Assembly: GCA_964014905.1 (NCBI GenBank)
Contig: CAXHCG010000002.1
Coordinates: 1-32,910 of the forward strand
DNA: 32,910 nucleotides
Direction of reading: 5' to 3'
Source of the DNA: an uncultured Candidatus Poseidoniales archaeon
Lineage (GTDB): Archaea > Thermoplasmatota > Poseidoniia > Poseidoniales > Poseidoniaceae
This document shows, piece after piece, positions 18,422-25,628 of this stretch; the first letter of the stretch is position 1; each line of letters begins with the position of its first letter. The translations under genes and the position numbers were made by a program. The notes beneath the pieces were generated by a model. That model was not told where the DNA came from. It saw nothing but the letters and a program-made list of their open reading frames with translations, and searched no databases.

Positions 18422-19324
18422 ATGGGCAAAGGTCGCATTGTTGCCGGTTGCATCGCACCGCATCCACCACACTTGGTCTACGCAGAAAATCCACCGCAAA
18501 ATGAACCGGTCGCCGAAGGCGGCTGGGAACAACTCCGTTGGGGCTATGAACGGCTACGTGCCTCACTCGCAGACAAGGACTACGACGCCATCGTCCTTCT
18601 TTCACCGCACTGGCAAACCTACGTTGGAACCCATTTCCTTGGCCTCCCTCACTTCGAGGGCCTTTCGGTTGACCCGGTGTTTCCAAATCTGTTTCGCTAT
18701 CACTACGACATGAACGTCGACGTTGAACTTTCCAAAGCCATTCACGATGAAGCAGAAGCTGCTGGCCTACCCGTGAAAATGATGGAAAACCCCGATTTCA
18801 GAGTCGATTACGGGACCATCACCACCGGGCATTTGTTCAATCCTGATTGGGATAAACCGATTGTGGTCATCTCAAGCAACCGTTCAACCGCTTATTATTC
18901 CGTGGAAGTCATGCAGGAAATCATGATCGAACTTGGCAAAGTGACGCGGAAGGCCATCGAAGCAAGTGGAAAAAAGGTCGTCGTGCTCGCCAGCAATTCA
19001 CTTTCCCACCGCCACTTCACAACCGAATCCGAGGTCCCCGAGGACATGAGCAAAGAGCACATCACCAGCCATGCCATGCATCTTTGGGACATGCGAATCA
19101 TCGATTACATGCGCAGCGGTCAATCGCAGCGTATCCTTGACGAAATGCCAGAATTCACGGAGCAAGCCATCGCTGAAAGCGATGGAGGAGGACTGTCTTG
19201 GCTCCTTTCAACCCTTGGCGTGCCGGACTATCCAGCCATCCTCCACGGCTACGGAACCATCATCGGGACTGGAAATGCCGTTGTTGAATGGCCTTGCCAC
19301 GCCCATGAGGTGAGCGCGGAATGA
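18422..19324 (+). CDS. Class III (LigB-type) extradiol dioxygenase catalytic subunit, 2-aminophenol 1,6-dioxygenase beta (AmnB/CnbCb)-like
   Basis: 300 aa. It has IAPHPPHLVYAENPPQNEP, LLSPHWQ, FRVDYGTITT, ASNSLSHRHF and QAIAESDGGG. H14, H63 and E252 sit where the 2-His-1-carboxylate triad is expected. Confidence 0.8.
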   Translation: MGKGRIVAGCIAPHPPHLVYAENPPQNEPVAEGGWEQLRWGYERLRASLADKDYDAIVLLSPHWQTYVGTHFLGLPHFEGLSVDPVFPNLFRYHYDMNVDVELSKAIHDEAEAAGLPVKMMENPDFRVDYGTITTGHLFNPDWDKPIVVISSNRSTAYYSVEVMQEIMIELGKVTRKAIEASGKKVVVLASNSLSHRHFTTESEVPEDMSKEHITSHAMHLWDMRIIDYMRSGQSQRILDEMPEFTEQAIAESDGGGLSWLLSTLGVPDYPAILHGYGTIIGTGNAVVEWPCHAHEVSAE

Positions 19325-20766
19325 GCGAAGGCAGTGTCGTCGGTTCCTTTGTGGTACCCGTTCATCCACACACCGTCCTCGCTCCAGACGAAAGCCCTGG
19401 TTGGCGGGCCTTGCGCGATGCTTTTGATGAAGCAGCACAGATGATTCGAGACCTCAAGGCCGATTTACTCATCGTTTATTCAACCACGTGGCCGTCCATC
19501 ATCGGACACCAAATCCAAGCGGACCCGAACCCTGAATGGGTGATGGTCGACCATGACTTCCACGACCTCGGATCAATTCCCTATTCGTTCAACATTGACG
19601 CTGAGTTTGCCCATGCATGGGACGACGCCAACCGAAACAGAGGTCTTCAAAGCCGATGCGTGAACTACAAAGGGTTCCCCATCGATGTGGGTTCGGTCGT
19701 TGCCCTGACCTTGCTCAATCCCAACAACGACATTCCTGCCGTCATCGTCTCTTCGAACATGTACGCCAATCGAAGCGAAACCACCGTGCTTGCGAAGTCA
19801 TGCCTTGACGTCATCAAAGAACAGGGGCGTCGAGCCGTGGCCATCACGGCCATGTCCCTCTCTAATCGAATGTTCACGGATTTCATTGAGCCAAAAGAAG
19901 ACAAAATTCACTCGCTCAAAGACGATGAATGGAATCGAAAAATCCTCGAGTTCTTGACAGAGGGACGACTGGAGGACGTCGGCCAACTTTCAAGAACCAT
20001 CCACCGCCAAATCCGCGTCCAAAAAGTCGTGGCGTTCAAGCCCATGTGGTGGCTTTCAGCCATGAATGGAAACCGAAACGACCTCAGTGGGCGAGTCCTG
20101 GCCTACGAAGCCATTCACGGAGCTGGAGGCGCCGTGGTTCACGTTGACCCCACTCCGTCCGGCGTGGGCGACAAAGAATACGACGAAGACGACATTGAAT
20201 ACTACCACGGAGAGCGAGGAGTCCTCGACACCGTGGCAGAAACCGAAGACGAAACGTTGGCCTCGCCCGATACAAAGACACCTCAGTCAGACGGTTCTCC
20301 AGAGGTCGAGTCCAGTGGACCAGCGCTGTGGAACCCTACGGAGGCCGAAGGTTCAGTCAACACCGATTCCGCACCCAAACCAGTGGGAGCCTACCCCCAT
20401 GCCCGGAAAGTCGGAAACATGCTGTTCCTTTCCGGCGTTGGGCCTCGCCAACCGGGGACCAATGCCATACCTGGCGGGCCAATTCATGATGAACATGGTG
20501 AACCGTCCGACTACGACATCAAGGCACAGACGCATGCTGTTGTGAACAACGTTCGACGCATTGTCGAGGAAGCCGGAGCCACCATGGACCAAGTGGTTGA
20601 TGTGACCACCTTCCTCGTGGACATGAAGCGCGACTTTGCAGGTTACAACGAGGTCTGGGCTGAAACGCTCGGCAAGGTTGGCCCCACGCGGACAACCTTG
20701 GCCATCGACGCTCTGCCAACCCCCATTGCAGTGGAAATGAAGGTCATCGTCCACATGGGCGAGTGA
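19321..20766 (+). CDS. Fusion protein: degenerate LigB-fold subunit (AmnA/alpha-like) + acidic linker + RidA/YjgF (2-aminomuconate deaminase-like) domain
   Basis: ATGA overlap with the upstream gene, and GAGGTGA 7 nt upstream. The N-terminal ~275 aa are paralogous to the upstream protein, but the metal and catalytic His positions are lost (STTW in place of SPHW, SLSNRMF in place of SLSHRHF). The C-terminal ~130 aa read APKPVGAYPHARKVGNMLFLSGVGP...PTRTTLAIDALPTPIAVEMKVIV, a RidA signature that includes the Arg. Confidence 0.8.
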   Translation: MSEGSVVGSFVVPVHPHTVLAPDESPGWRALRDAFDEAAQMIRDLKADLLIVYSTTWPSIIGHQIQADPNPEWVMVDHDFHDLGSIPYSFNIDAEFAHAWDDANRNRGLQSRCVNYKGFPIDVGSVVALTLLNPNNDIPAVIVSSNMYANRSETTVLAKSCLDVIKEQGRRAVAITAMSLSNRMFTDFIEPKEDKIHSLKDDEWNRKILEFLTEGRLEDVGQLSRTIHRQIRVQKVVAFKPMWWLSAMNGNRNDLSGRVLAYEAIHGAGGAVVHVDPTPSGVGDKEYDEDDIEYYHGERGVLDTVAETEDETLASPDTKTPQSDGSPEVESSGPALWNPTEAEGSVNTDSAPKPVGAYPHARKVGNMLFLSGVGPRQPGTNAIPGGPIHDEHGEPSDYDIKAQTHAVVNNVRRIVEEAGATMDQVVDVTTFLVDMKRDFAGYNEVWAETLGKVGPTRTTLAIDALPTPIAVEMKVIVHMGE

Positions 20767-20806
20767 AATTTTCCGGATACCGGAGAACAACTGTTGTAAA
20801 CCATAC

Positions 20807-20821
20807 AAATAACTATTATTA
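20807..20821 (+). promoter_or_regulatory. AT-rich TATA-like element (AAATAACTATTATTA) upstream of the transporter gene
   Basis: This is the most AT-rich stretch in the window, within the 112-bp intergenic region. GGGGGT lies 7 nt before the TTG start at 20879. Confidence 0.35.
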
Positions 20822-20878
20822 GATTGATGTTTCATCAAGATAAGAATCAGTTTCATGTCGGATTTCGGGGGTTAGACG

Positions 20879-22537
20879 TTGGCAAGAGATACCGTAGAAA
20901 GCATACTCAAAGGCGTCGCATCGGGAGACGCAAAGGGAGTCGCTAAGGAAATCAAAGGAACCCTCTCCAGAACGATAGGTCTCGCCACCCTGGTGATTCT
21001 CTCGTTGTCTTCGATGCTGGGCTCAGGTTTGTTCATTCTTCCTGCCTTTGCACAGGAAGTGGCAGGAGACGGTATGTGGTTTGCCTTTGTTTTGGCAGCG
21101 TCAGTGGTCCTCACAGGCGCCTTCTCAAAATCGGAACTCGCCAGTGCCATGCCCGAATCCGGTGGTGTTTACATCTACATGGAACGCACCTACGGCTCCC
21201 TCATGGGGACCATCAGTGGATTGGGCTTGTTTGCCTCGTTTATGCTCAAATCAGCGTTTGCTCTGATCGGTTTCGCCGCCTACCTCGAAGTGGTCACGGC
21301 CGCTCTTGACGTTGAGGTTAATCCGATTACGATGGCGCTGGTTCTCCTCACGTTCATCGTCATCATCAACATCACCGGCGTGAAGAAAATAAAAAAGGTC
21401 CAAACGCCAATTGTTGCAACAGCCGTTGGTTTCCTTCTCCTTCTGTGCATCATGGCCGTCCTGGGCGGTGATGCAGACTTCTCGCGACCCGTAACCAACA
21501 TTGACTATCTCAGTCCGGAAATGGGGACCGCAGCAGCCCTCGTGTTTGTGGCCTACTCCGGAGCCATCAAGGTTGGCGCAATCGGTGGCGAAGTGATGGA
21601 CCCTGAAAAAAACATCCCTCGAGGCATGTTCGCCTCGCTCTTGGTGGCAACCATCCTCTACGCAGGCGTTGCGTTTGTGATGGTATCGGTCCTCCCCACC
21701 GGATGGCACATGGACGACGGTCATGCAATTGAAAATCCAATCTACGTGTTTGCCGAACATGTGGGAGGCAGCACCATCGGCGTAATCGCTGCCCTCCTGG
21801 CCATCATTACGATGGCCTCAATGGCGCTTGCAGGTGTCTTGTCCGCCTCCCGGTTTCTTTTCGCCATGGCCAGAGACAACCTGCTTCCGTCCAAACTTGA
21901 AGACCTCAACCCAACCTATGAGACACCCCACTGGCCCATCATCATTACCGGATTGATGATGGCGACCGCCATTTTGACCATCGACGTCCACGCCATCGCA
22001 GAACTTGCGTCAGGGTTCAACATCATGGTGTTCGTTGCCATCAATGCCTCAGTGGTCGTGATGAGGCACGCTGGTCCACGGCACAACTGGAACCCACCTT
22101 ACAAATCCCCTCTTTACCCACTCCCTCAAATTTACGGTTCTGGAACCGGGATTCTTCTGCTGTGGCTCATCGGAACGAACGCCCTTATCGGAGCGGCAGG
22201 GGCCATCGGACTGGGCGTTGTCGTGTGGCTGGTGTACGGCCGCAAACACATCCTCGAGGAAGCACGCATCACGCCGTTTGCAACGTTCAAATCTCGCTTC
22301 ATAAATCCGACAAAAGAGGCGCATGAACGCTTCCTCACGGCGTTCCACTCAGCGGATATCGGCGGGAAAAACCACTTGACGCTCAGCGAATTTAGATCGG
22401 CCTTGACGCAAGGACTCGGAATGGACTTGGCACCGATGGAAGTTCGGATGTACTTTCACAAAGCGGATGCAGACGGAGACGGGGTCGTTGACATCGACGA
22501 GTTCCTCAATGCCATGGAACGCAATGAAGAGGAATGA
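20879..22537 (+). CDS. APC-superfamily amino acid/polyamine transporter with a C-terminal EF-hand pair
   Basis: 552 aa, roughly 12 TM helices, with an APC N-terminal signature (LSLSSMLGSGLFILP, SELASAMPESGGVYIYMERTYG). The cytoplasmic C-terminus carries a canonical EF loop, DADGDGVVDIDE. The TTG start is the only start-type codon before TM1. Confidence 0.85.
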   Translation: MARDTVESILKGVASGDAKGVAKEIKGTLSRTIGLATLVILSLSSMLGSGLFILPAFAQEVAGDGMWFAFVLAASVVLTGAFSKSELASAMPESGGVYIYMERTYGSLMGTISGLGLFASFMLKSAFALIGFAAYLEVVTAALDVEVNPITMALVLLTFIVIINITGVKKIKKVQTPIVATAVGFLLLLCIMAVLGGDADFSRPVTNIDYLSPEMGTAAALVFVAYSGAIKVGAIGGEVMDPEKNIPRGMFASLLVATILYAGVAFVMVSVLPTGWHMDDGHAIENPIYVFAEHVGGSTIGVIAALLAIITMASMALAGVLSASRFLFAMARDNLLPSKLEDLNPTYETPHWPIIITGLMMATAILTIDVHAIAELASGFNIMVFVAINASVVVMRHAGPRHNWNPPYKSPLYPLPQIYGSGTGILLLWLIGTNALIGAAGAIGLGVVVWLVYGRKHILEEARITPFATFKSRFINPTKEAHERFLTAFHSADIGGKNHLTLSEFRSALTQGLGMDLAPMEVRMYFHKADADGDGVVDIDEFLNAMERNEEE

Positions 22538-22548
22538 ATCGAACCGAT

Positions 22549-23019
22549 TCAAGCGAGAATCAATCGAAGGCTTTCCAAACTTCGCAATTCGGCGAAGTAA
22601 ATCTGTTCGATCGCGTCGTACATTTCCTGGTCGCCAATTTCATCCAAAAGTGTGATGATGCCGGCGTAGACTTCCGACGCTTTCGTCTCGGTTTCCAAGG
22701 AACGCTGCAGCATGTCCTTGAAATCAGTGGAATGGACAATGGGGTGAGGATTTCGCTCTGTAACCGGTACGCCACCCAGCTTGACGATTGAGCGACGGAC
22801 GACATCGGCGTGTGCCAATGATTCCGTGGCCTCTTCGGTGAACATTGGATCGAGTTGGAGCCGATGGATACCTTGGATGTTCGCAGCGTAATGTGCATAC
22901 ATGTTCATGGCTCGGAGTTCCCACCCAAGCGCTTCATTAAGCCGTTCAACCAACATCTCACTGCCCATGTTATCAGCCGTCCGTTGAGGTCCTACAATTT
23001 TAATCTCAGCATTGGTCAA
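22549..23019 (-). CDS. Ferritin-like / Dps-bacterioferritin superfamily protein
   Basis: A four-helix pattern: LVERLNEALGWELRAMNMYAHYAANIQG, FTEEATESLAHADVVRRSIVKLGG (ExxH), and ETETKASEVY..EQIYFAELRS. The track's start is a TTG at 23019, and the ATG at 22968 (MGSEML...) is an equally plausible start. Confidence 0.7.
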   Translation of the reverse strand: MTNAEIKIVGPQRTADNMGSEMLVERLNEALGWELRAMNMYAHYAANIQGIHRLQLDPMFTEEATESLAHADVVRRSIVKLGGVPVTERNPHPIVHSTDFKDMLQRSLETETKASEVYAGIITLLDEIGDQEMYDAIEQIYFAELRSLESLRLILA

Positions 23020-23027
23020 GGAGGAAT

Positions 23028-25628
23028 TTACTCATGACGAATCCACTCGCCTTCGGGTGTCACTTCCCAATATTGGAGTTCCTCGGAGACGTCGACGTAC
23101 CAACCTGTCTGGCCTTGGACAGTGGAGGGTGTTGCCTGCATCACGCCGATTTTGCCGGCTTCAAGTGCGAGATCCTTCATCGATTCAAGGGTCAAGCCAT
23201 GGCGCTCATGAAGGGGCGTGTTGTCCTCAACAGGTGATTCTACGATCTCGTCTTCATCCGCATCATCGTCGTACTCATCGTCATCAAAAGCGTCCTCAAG
23301 CCACTCCTCATCGGAAGCCTCTGCAGCCCTTCGGGTGAGGGTGATGAGAACGGCTAGAAGAAGAACGAGAAGGATGGCTGCCATGGTCATGGCGGTGTTG
23401 GTTGAACCGACCGCTCCACCGAGCAGAACCTCCTCAACATCGAAGAAGTTTTGAGCCAAAAGACCACTCCAACGGACCGTGCAAGAACGATCAGTGCCTC
23501 CATTTTGAATGTCAACCTCCCACGTACCGTTGGTGACGAAGCTGGTTGGTCCTGTTGTGCATGATACACTGGCGTTGGCCTTTGGAATGCTCAACGTGTT
23601 GCCGTATTCATCGGTCGCAAAAGCATTCAACAAAACGATGTCTCCTTCAGCGAGAATGGAGCGGCTTAGACTGGCTTGAATGCGAACAGGGGAACCAGGT
23701 TCAATGGTGAGTGGGATGGTGTGAACGGCACCTTCGTCTTCGAGAATGAGCGAATATGTTCCGACCTGTTTGCCGGTGAATTGCCAATATCCAAGTCCTG
23801 TAGGTGAGGCTGTCAATTCCCCAAACGAAGCGTTCAAGCTTGAGGTCACAGATACCGATTCGGCAACGTTGCCGTGGACGTCAACCACCTGAATAAAGAG
23901 GTCCTGCGGCAGTCCAGCCTTCACCACCAACCCCTCGTCAGCATCCGTGATCAACCCGTAAGCGTTGCCGGCCACGACCGTCAAACGAACGGTTGCAAAG
24001 ACACCGTCCGCATTCACTCGAATCTCATGACCGCCGACAGTCGTCGCCGTCCAGCGCCCGTTGTTGAGGAGCATCTCAAGGGTGATGTCATCACCGTCAA
24101 GGGTCCAATTGAGCGCAATGGAGTTCAGTTCGTTGGAGTAGGCATCGAAAAACATAGGATTCAGGTCCAAGGACCCGTCAGCCGGGACTCGGTCTCCTTC
24201 GCCTTCAAGCGTGATGAAGGCCAACCTTCCTGGCCGAACCTCAAACGATGCATCGGTCGTGAACATCGCCCCAGTGGCGTTGTCGAACCAACTTCCTTCA
24301 ATCCGCCATGATTGAACGCGCTCGGCTTGGAGGAGCGCATACGACGTATCGAGAACGAGTTCTTCCGTATCGCCCATGGTCGGTTCAATGGTCCCGTCAA
24401 CCACCCAACGGTTTCCTTTGATGTCCTCGGCTACAAGTTCGATCACAACCTGATCGCCTGCTGATGGATTCCGAGGTTCAAGTTGGAGCTTGATGTCAAT
24501 GGCCCTGCCATGGAGAACATCCAGATCCAACGAACTGCTCACCGTACCGTCCGTGCCCGTGATGGTCGCTGGACCGGTCGCAGACGGATTCCAGAACACA
24601 CGCTGATTCTCATCCACAGAAAGCCCTCCAGAAGAGGCCGTAAGAGCGTGAATCGAGGGTGAAACCATACCGATGTACCCGTTCACATCTCTTCGCTCAA
24701 ACATCAGTTCATAGGATTCACCGGCCAAAAATTCCGCTGGTGAATCAACCACCATGAGGGTAGAGGCAACAGCATCGCCGGGAATCACATGGAGTGTCGT
24801 GCTCCCCGTAATGTTGCCTGAAGAGACCGTTATCAGCCATCGACCGGTGTTCGTAGCAAGGTATTCACCCTGGGCATTGAACGAACCGTTTTCTGCAAAC
24901 CAAGACAGTGAACCAACCTTCGAGAGCGGCATGTCATAGCCGTTGATGTCAACAAGAGAGGGGCGAATCGTTTGCAGCGTTCCGGCTCTCACAACAAGGG
25001 GTTCATCGAACACAAAGGAGTGAGGAGCCCCTGCGATGACATCGATGGCCGCCCGAGATTCGAGTTGGTTGTAGCGCACCCGAGCTTGGACTTCACCGAG
25101 TTCTTCGGCCGTCCACGATGGTTGACCATGACCAGCGTAATCGCCGTTGATATCCCAAACCATGGATGATGGCCCAACCATGCGGTTTCCTCGTCCGTCA
25201 AGAACATCCGCAGTGAGGGTGGTTGGTTCCAAAACACCGACAGAACGTGTCGTAATCTCAATGGATGTGGGTACCCCTGGATTCACAGAGATGTTGGTAC
25301 TCGCTATCAAACCATTGTGTTCCGCTGTAATTTCAATCAAACCTGCCGACCAGGGGTAAAACAGACCGTCTTCGGAAATCGTCCCGTTGCTGACCGACCA
25401 AGACACGTCCCCGGTCAGCACGTTGTTGACCGGGTCGTAGATAATGGCCTCAAACAACACCACTTCATCGGCTGAGATGGAGGTTGGGGCAGCATCTATT
25501 ACAACACGGTCGGCAGTTCCTGAACGCATTGAAACGCTGGCGTCCCCCAAAAGTGAAGGCACCGTTGTTGACCATGTCCCGAGGAGGACAAGCCCAACAA
25601 GAACGGCGCAAGCCTTCGGGAACGACAC
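23028..25628 (-). CDS. Type-I surface protein with tandem Big_2-like Ig domains, C-terminal TM, acidic tail and a Trp-rich terminal motif
   Basis: 866 aa. GTG start with GAGGT 9 nt upstream, overlapping the stop of the giant gene. The signal peptide is MSFPKACAVLVGLVLLGTWS. Repeated units follow the Big_2 pattern ...DVSWSVSNGTISEDGLFYPWSAGLIEITAEHNG.... The TM helix is AMTMAAILLVLLLAVLITLT, followed by RRAAE, DEEWLEDAFDDDEYDDDADEDE, and a C-terminal GWYVDVSEELQYWEVTPEGEWIRHE. Confidence 0.87.
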   Translation of the reverse strand: MSFPKACAVLVGLVLLGTWSTTVPSLLGDASVSMRSGTADRVVIDAAPTSISADEVVLFEAIIYDPVNNVLTGDVSWSVSNGTISEDGLFYPWSAGLIEITAEHNGLIASTNISVNPGVPTSIEITTRSVGVLEPTTLTADVLDGRGNRMVGPSSMVWDINGDYAGHGQPSWTAEELGEVQARVRYNQLESRAAIDVIAGAPHSFVFDEPLVVRAGTLQTIRPSLVDINGYDMPLSKVGSLSWFAENGSFNAQGEYLATNTGRWLITVSSGNITGSTTLHVIPGDAVASTLMVVDSPAEFLAGESYELMFERRDVNGYIGMVSPSIHALTASSGGLSVDENQRVFWNPSATGPATITGTDGTVSSSLDLDVLHGRAIDIKLQLEPRNPSAGDQVVIELVAEDIKGNRWVVDGTIEPTMGDTEELVLDTSYALLQAERVQSWRIEGSWFDNATGAMFTTDASFEVRPGRLAFITLEGEGDRVPADGSLDLNPMFFDAYSNELNSIALNWTLDGDDITLEMLLNNGRWTATTVGGHEIRVNADGVFATVRLTVVAGNAYGLITDADEGLVVKAGLPQDLFIQVVDVHGNVAESVSVTSSLNASFGELTASPTGLGYWQFTGKQVGTYSLILEDEGAVHTIPLTIEPGSPVRIQASLSRSILAEGDIVLLNAFATDEYGNTLSIPKANASVSCTTGPTSFVTNGTWEVDIQNGGTDRSCTVRWSGLLAQNFFDVEEVLLGGAVGSTNTAMTMAAILLVLLLAVLITLTRRAAEASDEEWLEDAFDDDEYDDDADEDEIVESPVEDNTPLHERHGLTLESMKDLALEAGKIGVMQATPSTVQGQTGWYVDVSEELQYWEVTPEGEWIRHE

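What the first reader, a model, noticed from the sequence alone, without database searches (positions are those of the whole stretch)
22331..22534. APC amino-acid transporter ending in an EF-hand pair
After the last TM helix, the transporter tail contains a degenerate EF loop (ADIGGKNHLTLSEF) paired with a textbook one: DADGDGVVDIDE at 22466..22501, with D1, D3, D5, G6, a hydrophobic residue at position 8, and E12. EF-hand proteins are scarce in archaea, and I do not recall APC permeases carrying them. This suggests direct Ca2+ gating or regulation of amino-acid or amine uptake. The gene sits right after the dioxygenase operon, so it may import that pathway's substrate.
Basis: partly seen in the sequence, partly recalled or inferred. 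Interest (0 to 1): 0.58.

Follow-up and report, generated by a model that had tools for sequence, protein, structure and literature searches.

The report
Archaeal amino-acid permease with EF-hand tail
A Marine Group II (Poseidoniales) archaeon encodes a 12-helix amino-acid-type transporter that ends, inside the cell, in a small calmodulin-like calcium-binding module; the fusion is ancestral to the whole order, so calcium may tune nutrient uptake, but this has never been tested.

Summary
ORF 20879-22537 (+, 552 aa) is an APC/SLC7-like permease. Its last ~70 residues score above Pfam's EF-hand_7 cut-off (47.6 vs 30 bits). Loop 2 (DADGDGVVDIDE, 22466-22501) is canonical. Loop 1 (DIGGKNHLTLSE) lacks the ligands at positions 3 and 5. 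The core aligns end to end with GkApcT (PDB 5OQT/6F34), and K/R are 11 in inside loops against 1 outside, so the tail is cytoplasmic.

The fusion is not a one-off. 138 of 151 Poseidoniales genomes sampled carry the transporter, most with the tail. The tail is basal on the tree and was cleanly lost at least six or seven times. Homologues elsewhere in Thermoplasmatota carry Usp or PTS-EIIA domains at the same position, so this is a regulatory-domain slot.

Poseidoniales genomes carry 1-10 EF-hand matches each, and most other Thermoplasmatota sampled carry none.

Ca2+-dependent regulation is the best reading but is only inferred. The link to the neighbouring LigB/RidA genes is conserved proximity, not a shown operon.

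No paper in the held library describes the fusion. This scan found it before on other DNA (e1-888283, e1-5227212).

The parts
20767..20878 (+). 112-nt AT-rich spacer between the LigB2-RidA stop and the permease start. It holds an oligo-T just after the upstream stop, a TATA-like ATAACTATTATTA, and GGGGGT 6-11 nt before the TTG start. The permease is probably its own transcription unit.
   Evidence: Read directly from the sequence. The promoter and terminator roles are inferred, not tested.
20879..22537 (+). Whole gene: 552-aa APC permease with a C-terminal EF-hand pair (TTG start, TGA stop).
   Evidence: ORF list. Pfam AA_permease_2 plus EF-hand_7. Full-length homologues at 50-92% identity. 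Single copy in its own genome.
20981..22240 (+). 12-TM LeuT-fold transporter core (aa 35-454).
   Evidence: phmmer to GkApcT 6F34/5OQT, E 1e-33, aa 28-457 against 22-457. AlphaFold2 mean pLDDT 83.7, pTM 0.81, twelve long helices. Foldseek best hit 6F34_A, E 1e-18, TM-score 0.83 on the target. K/R 11 in inside loops, 1 in outside loops.
22241..22312 (+). Cytoplasmic linker after TM12 (aa 455-478), with the conserved T465-P466-F..F470 short helix. This motif is also kept in tail-less relatives.
   Evidence: Invariant and near-invariant columns in alignment A1. Helix 467-472 in the model. C-termini of tail-less forms.
22313..22414 (+). EF-hand 1 (aa 479-512). Loop 1 is D493-E504, DIGGKNHLTLSE (nt 22355-22390). 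It is non-canonical, with Gly at position 3 and Lys at position 5, yet nearly invariant.
   Evidence: Column counts over 105 cluster representatives: D1 105, G3 103, K5 104, H7 105, L8 105, E12 105. Helix-loop-helix with a beta bridge at 499-500.
22433..22519 (+). EF-hand 2 (aa 519-547). Loop 2 is D530-E541, DADGDGVVDIDE (nt 22466-22501). It is canonical at positions 1, 3, 5, 6, 8, 9 and 12.
   Evidence: EF-hand_1 34.7 bits. 97 of 105 representatives meet a strict canonical pattern. Beta bridge at 537-538 pairs with loop 1.
22526..22534 (+). C-terminal Glu-Glu-Glu end. This is an instance of the order-wide -EEE ending seen on about 3% of this genome's long ORFs.
   Evidence: 35 of 1113 ORFs of at least 200 aa end in EEE, against 2 at a control position. 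The ending is enriched among polytopic membrane proteins.
18422..20766 (+). Upstream neighbours: a LigB-type dioxygenase subunit (18422-19324) and a LigB-like subunit fused to RidA (19321-20766). They lie within 3 kb of the permease in 13 of 16 loci examined.
   Evidence: Pfam LigB and Ribonuc_L-PSP. tblastn synteny over 16 Poseidoniales loci.

Best explanation
The gene encodes a 12-TM APC/SLC7-like amino-acid permease whose closest solved relative is GkApcT. After TM12 its cytoplasmic C-terminus carries a short conserved linker and one calmodulin-lobe-like EF-hand pair.

Only loop 2 has the full set of Ca2+ ligands. Loop 1 is a conserved non-binding partner, with Gly at position 3 and Lys at position 5.

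The most likely mechanism has three steps:
- The pair binds one Ca2+ when cytoplasmic Ca2+ rises.
- Binding changes the pair's conformation.
- The pair then docks on, or releases, a cytoplasmic element of the same transporter and modulates gate opening. Candidate elements are the TP(F/L)xxF linker helix and the TM8-TM9 loop next to the cytoplasmic gate.

This would couple amino-acid uptake to a Ca2+ signal.

Shown here: the architecture, the topology by homology and by the positive-inside rule, conservation, ancestry in the order, and repeated loss of the tail.

Inferred only: Ca2+ binding, the docking site, and the direction of regulation.
For: - EF-hand HMMs score above their cut-offs, and the tail matches calmodulin lobes in sequence at E ~1e-10.
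- Loop 2 is canonical in 97 of 105 cluster representatives. Loop 1 is invariant at D1, H7, L8 and E12 and near-invariant at G3 and K5.
- The tail is modelled confidently (pLDDT 84-90) as two helix-loop-helix units joined by a beta bridge.
- The core aligns end to end with GkApcT up to the shared ...YGRKH end of TM12. K/R are 11 inside and 1 outside, which places the tail in the cytoplasm.
- The transporter was found in 138 of 151 Poseidoniales genomes, in all three families and 22 of 22 genera. Roughly 100 of the matches run into the tail, by my own count of the table.
- EF-tailed forms are basal on the outgroup-rooted tree.
- Homologues elsewhere in Thermoplasmatota carry PTS_EIIA_2 or Usp domains at the same C-terminal position. 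This position is therefore a slot for cytoplasmic regulatory modules.
- Tail-less forms arose at least six or seven times with no EF remnant left downstream. The tail is an accessory to transport, as a regulator would be.
- In the largest tail-less clade, changes at positions otherwise conserved in tailed forms cluster in the TM8-TM9 cytoplasmic loop: F328Y, R332K, N334G, L335V, E341G/A, E348K.
- The genome also encodes a CaCA (Na_Ca_ex) exchanger and at least 7 EF-hand matches above the cut-off. This is consistent with controlled cytoplasmic Ca2+.
Against: - No experiment and no computed affinity support Ca2+ binding.
- Only one of the two loops can bind Ca2+ in the canonical way.
- Repeated tail loss shows the regulation is dispensable in several lineages.
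- The TM8-TM9 cluster comes from one long branch (0.53 changes per column), so it may be ordinary divergence.
- The model's coordinates and PAE were not available, so docking of the tail on the core could not be examined.
- Ca2+ signalling has not been demonstrated in these uncultured archaea.
Confidence: 0.6

Rival explanations
1. The EF-hand pair is a constitutive structural, dimerisation or partner-docking module. It is either always Ca2+-loaded or never loaded, and transport is not Ca2+-regulated. It might hold transporter dimers together or recruit a cytoplasmic partner, possibly together with the -EEE end.
For: - Loop 1 is a strongly conserved non-binding loop, as in EF-hand pairs used for protein-protein contacts.
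- Single EF-hand pairs often pair up with another pair; this is general knowledge, not tested here.
- The -EEE end is a separate conserved feature that is shared with many unrelated proteins.
Against: - Loop 2 keeps every Ca2+ ligand in 97 of 105 representatives. That is hard to explain without metal binding.
- Related permeases carry recognised sensor domains (Usp, EIIA) at the same position.
Confidence: 0.2
2. The tail senses something other than Ca2+. Candidates are Mg2+, another metal, or pH, acting through the invariant His499 (loop 1, position 7) and the near-invariant His527 just before loop 2.
For: H499 is invariant in 105 of 105 tails. H527 is conserved in at least 90% of the rows of alignment A1, which include five tail-less forms. 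Conserved His is unusual at these EF-hand positions.
Against: Loop 2 has the textbook oxygen-ligand set with a bidentate Glu at position 12, which favours Ca2+ over Mg2+ (established EF-hand chemistry). Nothing computed here links the two His residues in space.
Confidence: 0.1
3. The permease is the dedicated importer for the substrate of the adjacent AmnAB-like LigB/RidA ring-cleavage module. It concerns the substrate and is compatible with any reading of the tail.
For: - The permease lies within 3 kb of the LigB1 and LigB2-RidA genes in 13 of 16 loci, across both large families, despite rearrangements of the other neighbours.
- The pocket is widened by Gly at the GkApcT Met321 position.
Against: - The permease has its own spacer and likely its own promoter.
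- In family f3, two or three opposite-strand genes (PI-PLC-like, FKBP) separate it from RidA.
- Three of 16 loci lack the linkage.
- The pocket residues are shared with Usp- and EIIA-tailed relatives outside the order, so they are not specific to this linkage.
- Poseidoniales genomes are broadly syntenic, so proximity alone is weak evidence.
Confidence: 0.2
4. The tail is extracellular and is simply stabilised by the 10 mM Ca2+ of seawater.
For: This genome also places EF-hands on a ZnuA-type solute-binding protein. That protein is expected to lie outside the cell (my inference), so extracellular EF-hands may exist in this organism.
Against: - There are twelve TM helices with N-in topology by homology to GkApcT.
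- K/R are 11 inside and 1 outside.
- Relatives carry cytoplasmic Usp and EIIA domains at the same end.
Confidence: 0.03

Closest known systems
GkApcT (Geobacillus kaustophilus CAT/SLC7 homologue; PDB 5OQT, 6F34; PMC5803215)
   Same: It has the same 12-TM LeuT-fold core, aligned over aa 28-457 (E 1e-33, about 25% identity). It is the best Foldseek match, with TM-score 0.83 on the target. The G-S-G motif in TM1 is kept, and both proteins end TM12 in ...YGRKH.
   Different: - GkApcT stops after TM12 and has no EF-hand tail.
- The window protein has Ser120 at the proton-coupling Glu115 position and Ala182 at the Lys191 position.
- It has Ile230 at the Asp237 position and Gly319 at the Met321 position.
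- It has invariant Lys124 and Lys231 at the Ala119 and Ala238 positions.
- The coupling ion and the substrate may therefore differ.
Calmodulin lobe / generic EF-hand pair (Pfam PF13499)
   Same: It has two helix-loop-helix units paired through a short beta bridge. Loop 2 fits the canonical 12-residue Ca2+ loop. phmmer to calmodulin gives E ~1e-10.
   Different: It is a single pair with only one canonical site. Loop 1 has Gly at position 3 and Lys at position 5. It is fused in cis to a transporter rather than being a free sensor.
Ca2+-regulated mitochondrial carriers (aspartate/glutamate carriers aralar and citrin; ATP-Mg/Pi carrier SCaMC). This comparison rests on general knowledge.
   Same: The logic is the same: EF-hand domains fused in cis to a secondary transporter, so that Ca2+ on one side of the membrane switches transport.
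   Different: The transporter fold is unrelated (mitochondrial carrier family, six TM). Those EF-hands are N-terminal, in four to eight copies, and eukaryotic. This is an analogy only, not homology.
Thermoplasmatota APC permeases with C-terminal Usp or PTS_EIIA_2 domains
   Same: They belong to the same permease subfamily (30-40% identity, same pocket residues K124, K231 and G319). Their cytoplasmic regulatory-type domain is attached at the same place after TM12.
   Different: The appended domain is Usp or EIIA, not an EF-hand. No EF-tailed form was seen outside Poseidoniales in the 250 genomes of the phylum sampled.

Membership tests
EF-hand pair (PF13499 / PF00036) | Score above the curated Pfam cut-off | tested here: met
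   EF-hand_7 47.6 bits (cut-off 30), EF-hand_1 34.7 bits (25.4), EF-hand_6 35.3 bits (25) on the whole protein.
EF-hand pair (PF13499 / PF00036) | 12-residue loop with oxygen ligands at positions 1, 3, 5 and 12, Gly at 6 and a hydrophobic residue at 8 | tested here: met
   Loop 2 is DADGDGVVDIDE. 97 of 105 homologues meet the strict pattern. Loop 1 (DIGGKNHLTLSE) fails at positions 3 and 5, so only one site is canonical.
EF-hand pair (PF13499 / PF00036) | Two helix-loop-helix units paired by a short antiparallel beta bridge | tested here: met
   The AlphaFold2 model has helices 479-492, 502-512, 519-529 and 539-547, and strands at 499-500 and 537-538, with pLDDT 84-90. This is a prediction, not a solved structure.
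EF-hand pair (PF13499 / PF00036) | Binds Ca2+ | not testable with these tools
   Needs ITC, Tb3+ luminescence or 45Ca overlay on the purified tail.
APC superfamily / SLC7-like permease (PF13520) | HMM score above the cut-off, and the 12-TM LeuT fold | tested here: met
   AA_permease_2 130 bits (cut-off 27). Foldseek to 6F34_A, E 1e-18, TM-score 0.83 on the target.
Proton-coupled GkApcT-type transporter | Glu115 (proton coupling) and Lys191 (Na2-site surrogate), as defined in PMC5803215 | tested here: not met
   The aligned residues are Ser120 and Ala182. Across the family they are S/N/A and A/T/S. The coupling mechanism is therefore unknown.
NCBIfam TIGR00909 (2A0306) and NF053761 (BcaP) | Score above the curated cut-off | tested here: not met
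   194.1 bits against 556.8, and 175.9 bits against 690. They are the best-scoring families, but the protein is not a member by NCBI's thresholds.
Ca2+-regulated mitochondrial carriers (SLC25 AGC / SCaMC) | Mitochondrial-carrier fold with N-terminal EF-hand domains | tested here: not met
   The core is a LeuT-fold APC and the EF-hands are C-terminal. This is a functional analogy only.

The most novel reading that the evidence does not exclude
The EF-hand tail may be one output of an order-wide cytoplasmic Ca2+ second-messenger system in Poseidoniales. The same small EF-hand pair has been grafted onto an amino-acid permease, a NuoL/Mrp-type proton-antiporter subunit, a dead heme-copper-oxidase-like membrane protein and several soluble proteins. 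A Ca2+ transient could then retune nutrient uptake and membrane energetics together. This would be the first such network described in archaea.
Probability: 0.25. Interest if true: 0.8.

Novelty: new variant of a known kind. Interest (0 to 1): 0.55.

Why it matters
Poseidoniales are among the most abundant archaea of the surface ocean. They are uncultured and live on proteins and amino acids, so how they control amino-acid uptake matters for marine carbon and nitrogen turnover.

Ca2+ signalling in archaea is almost unexplored. This finding offers a compact, cis-fused sensor-transporter that could be expressed and tested in proteoliposomes, which makes the question directly testable.

It also shows a general design rule. 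The C-terminus after TM12 of this permease subfamily is a slot where lineages plug in different cytoplasmic sensors: Usp, EIIA or an EF-hand.

Tried and rejected
- A whole-library phmmer search with the 95-aa tail was swamped by long multi-EF-hand proteins. Ten candidates with EF-hand matches near the C-terminus were checked by Pfam. None was an APC permease and one was an ion channel. This gave no census of APC-plus-EF architectures outside the order.
Synteny was done instead with the fetch from genomes and tblastn.
- Seven literature searches found no paper that describes the fusion. PMC9258230 only mentions Poseidoniales-specific modules with calcium-binding domains.
- P0009, an 85%-identical protein that looked tail-less, is a frameshifted copy of the tail and not a real tail-less form. 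It was left out of the trees.
- L040 (G097) gave a spurious longest frame and was left out.
- Frameshifted EF remnants downstream of tail-less genes were sought by tblastn. Nothing was found below E 0.03.
- An extracellular tail was rejected on topology.
- The model's coordinates and PAE were not available, so docking of the tail on the core could not be read.
- The ESM Atlas returned only two archaeal clusters that combine AA_permease and EF-hand. The other nearest clusters are bacterial permeases without EF-hands. This is a lead, not a census.

Full report
**1. What is there**

The window holds a 552-aa ORF at 20879-22537 on the + strand. The second loop is encoded exactly at 22466-22501.

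Pfam finds AA_permease_2 over aa 33-429 (E 1e-37) and EF-hand_7 over aa 486-546 (47.6 bits, cut-off 30). EF-hand_1 and EF-hand_6 also score above their cut-offs. The tail alone gives E 6e-14.

**2. Topology**

phmmer against PDB sequences aligns aa 28-457 with residues 22-457 of GkApcT (5OQT/6F34, E 1e-33). Both sequences end TM12 in YGRKH. GkApcT is a 12-TM transporter whose N-terminal lateral helix packs on the cytoplasmic side (PMC5803215).

An AlphaFold2 model built on 62 homologues has mean pLDDT 83.7 and pTM 0.81, with twelve long helices. After them come a short helix at 467-472 and four helices at 479-492, 502-512, 519-529 and 539-547. Strand residues sit at 499-500 and 537-538. This is the classic EF-hand pair. 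The best Foldseek match is 6F34_A (E 1e-18, TM-score 0.83 on the target).

With these helix limits, loops on the predicted inside hold 11 K/R and loops on the outside hold 1. The tail is therefore cytoplasmic. This rests on homology and on the positive-inside rule, not on experiment.

**3. Conservation of the tail**

A word-indexed search returned hundreds of proteins of about 550 aa at 50-92% identity, nearly all already annotated with PF13520 plus PF13499. Where they are named, the names are Poseidoniaceae, Poseidonia or Euryarchaeota.

Counts over 105 cluster representatives:

| Position | Loop 2 | Loop 1 |
|---|---|---|
| 1 | D 105 | D 105 |
| 3 | N/D 102 | G 103 |
| 5 | D/N 98 | K 104 |
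| 6 | G 105 | N/G 104 |
| 7 | mostly V (83) | H 105 |
| 8 | I/V/L 105 | L 105 |
| 9 | D 103 | mostly T (73) or N (31) |
| 12 | E 102 | E 105 |

- 97 of 105 representatives meet a strict canonical pattern in loop 2.
- Loop 1 is even more constant, but it is fixed on a pattern that cannot ligate Ca2+ at positions 3 and 5.
- In some genomes of the second family (G027, G023, G019), loop 1 is more acidic and closer to canonical. Degeneration of loop 1 may therefore be secondary.

**4. Distribution and history**

- In 151 Poseidoniales genomes the transporter was found in 138, in all three families and 22 of 22 genera. Roughly 100 matches run to residue 544 or beyond, by my own count of the table.
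- In 250 genomes of the phylum, the sister family of the same class had no match (0 of 7).
- All other Thermoplasmatota homologues (30-40% identity) matched only the core, but lay in open frames of 600-830 aa.
- Three of these were fetched. One carries PTS_EIIA_2, one carries Usp, and one carries an unassigned 330-aa extension after TM12.
- On maximum-likelihood trees of the core rooted on these outgroups, EF-tailed sequences of family f3 are basal.
- Tail-less sequences fall in seven places, each nested among tailed ones, and well-supported branches force all seven changes.
- No EF remnant lies downstream of the tail-less genes.
- The simplest history is one gain at or before the base of the order, then at least six or seven clean losses, all in Poseidoniaceae.
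- The window's own clade is the tailed sister of the largest tail-less clade.
- In the same genus, a tail-less form (G014) sits at the identical locus. Its flanking genes are 83-95% identical to the window's, while the permease is only 61% identical.

**5. Mechanism**

What is shown is a cis-fused, cytoplasmic EF-hand pair with one canonical site. It sits at a position where related permeases carry other sensor-type domains, and it is dispensable for the transporter as such.

From this I infer Ca2+-dependent autoregulation, following the pattern of EF-hand-bearing transporters elsewhere. The direction of regulation is unknown.

Two weak leads point to a docking surface:
- The T465-P466-F..F470 helix is conserved with or without the tail.
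- In the largest tail-less clade, changes at positions conserved in tailed forms cluster in the TM8-TM9 cytoplasmic loop: F328Y, R332K, N334G, L335V, E341G/A and E348K. This comes from one long branch and may be ordinary divergence.

The genome encodes a CaCA exchanger, so Ca2+ extrusion is available.

**6. Context of EF-hands**

The window's 2-Mb genome has 13 EF-hand_7 matches, 7 of them above the cut-off. Apart from the permease, they lie on:
- a NuoL/Mrp-type subunit, with the pair inserted at aa 477-533;
- a polytopic membrane protein with a C-terminal pair;
- a ZnuA-type binding protein;
- zinc-ribbon membrane proteins;
- a 93-aa stand-alone pair.

Across 201 Thermoplasmatota genomes the family matched in 21 of 21 genomes of family f1 (3-10 matches each), 12 of 14 of f3, and 7 of 24 of one other family. 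None of the remaining families had a match. EF-hands are therefore rare in this archaeal phylum but are a hallmark of this order.

**7. The dioxygenase link**

The upstream genes are a LigB-type subunit and a LigB-like subunit fused to RidA. The permease lies within 3 kb of them in 13 of 16 loci, across both large families.

Against an operon:
- The permease has its own 112-nt AT-rich spacer.
- In family f3, opposite-strand PI-PLC-like and FKBP genes lie between RidA and the permease.
- Three of the 16 loci lack the linkage.

This is conserved proximity, not a shown functional unit.

The pocket differs from GkApcT at the positions that PMC5803215 names: Ser for Glu115, Ala for Lys191, Ile for Asp237, Gly for Met321, and invariant Lys at the Ala119 and Ala238 positions. 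These residues are shared with the Usp- and EIIA-tailed relatives, so they say nothing specific about this locus.

**8. Novelty**

No paper in the held library describes an APC-EF-hand fusion. The ESM Atlas names its cluster 'putative EF-hand domain-containing protein' and shows only archaeal clusters with both domains among the nearest.

This scan found the same fusion before on other DNA and reached the same reading. I file it as a new variant of a known kind: a known transporter fold, a known sensor domain, a known logic, but a new combination in a new lineage.

Noticed in passing
window 22526-22534, and genome-wide (G000): The permease ends in -EEE. In this genome 35 of 1113 ORFs of at least 200 aa (3.1%) end exactly in EEE, against 0.2% at a control position 30 aa upstream. 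36% of the EEE-ending ORFs have at least 3 hydrophobic segments, against 12% of all ORFs. Tail-less permeases also end in acidic residues. The scan has noted this -EEE ending on other Poseidoniales DNA (e1-922024, e1-5507244).
   Followed up: partly
L005 (G000:C86:398-3568), ORF L005:73-2682:+: An 870-aa NuoL/Mrp-antiporter-type subunit (Proton_antipo_M, E 7e-57) has an EF-hand pair inserted at aa 477-533. The insert lies between His-rich stretches in the middle of the membrane domain.
   Followed up: partly
L007 (G000:C3:14146-17319), ORF L007:1-1734:+: A polytopic membrane protein with no Pfam hit for its core ends in an EF-hand pair (aa 501-558) and in -HEEE. It is probably the 'dead oxidase fold with calcium-sensing tail' that the scan noted elsewhere (e1-950738).
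   Followed up: partly
L008 (G000:C55:7639-10270): A ZnuA-type solute-binding protein carries long His/Asp-rich repeats and three EF-hand matches. These EF-hands would lie outside the cell, unlike the permease tail.
   Followed up: no
L017 (G014), L026 (G052) and L015 (G006) compared with window 18422-25628: Within one genus the permease gene at the same locus is 52-89% identical, and tail-less in G014, while the flanking LigB genes are 83-95% identical. The permease evolves, or is replaced, much faster than these neighbours. The adjacent 866-aa surface protein behaves the same way (60-76% identity).
   Followed up: partly
L020:6238-7254:- and L029:5767-6828:-: In family f3 genomes, a PF16670 'Ca2+-dependent phosphoinositide phospholipase C'-like gene (E 1e-63 to 1e-71) and one or two FKBP genes lie on the opposite strand between RidA and the EF-hand permease.
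   Followed up: no
window 20879-22537, residues K124, K231, G319, S120, A182: Two invariant lysines (at the GkApcT Ala119 and Ala238 positions) and an invariant Gly at the Met321 position line the predicted pocket. The proton-coupling Glu115 and the Lys191 of GkApcT are absent. These residues are shared with Usp- and EIIA-tailed Thermoplasmatota relatives. They hint at a larger, more cationic pocket and a different coupling ion.
   Followed up: partly
L012 (G019:C9), L020/L021 (G027, G023): In some f3 lineages the tail differs. G019 has a longer insert between the two EF-hands. G027 and G023 have a more acidic, near-canonical loop 1 (..DGNGELNADQ..). Two-site tails may be the older state.
   Followed up: no
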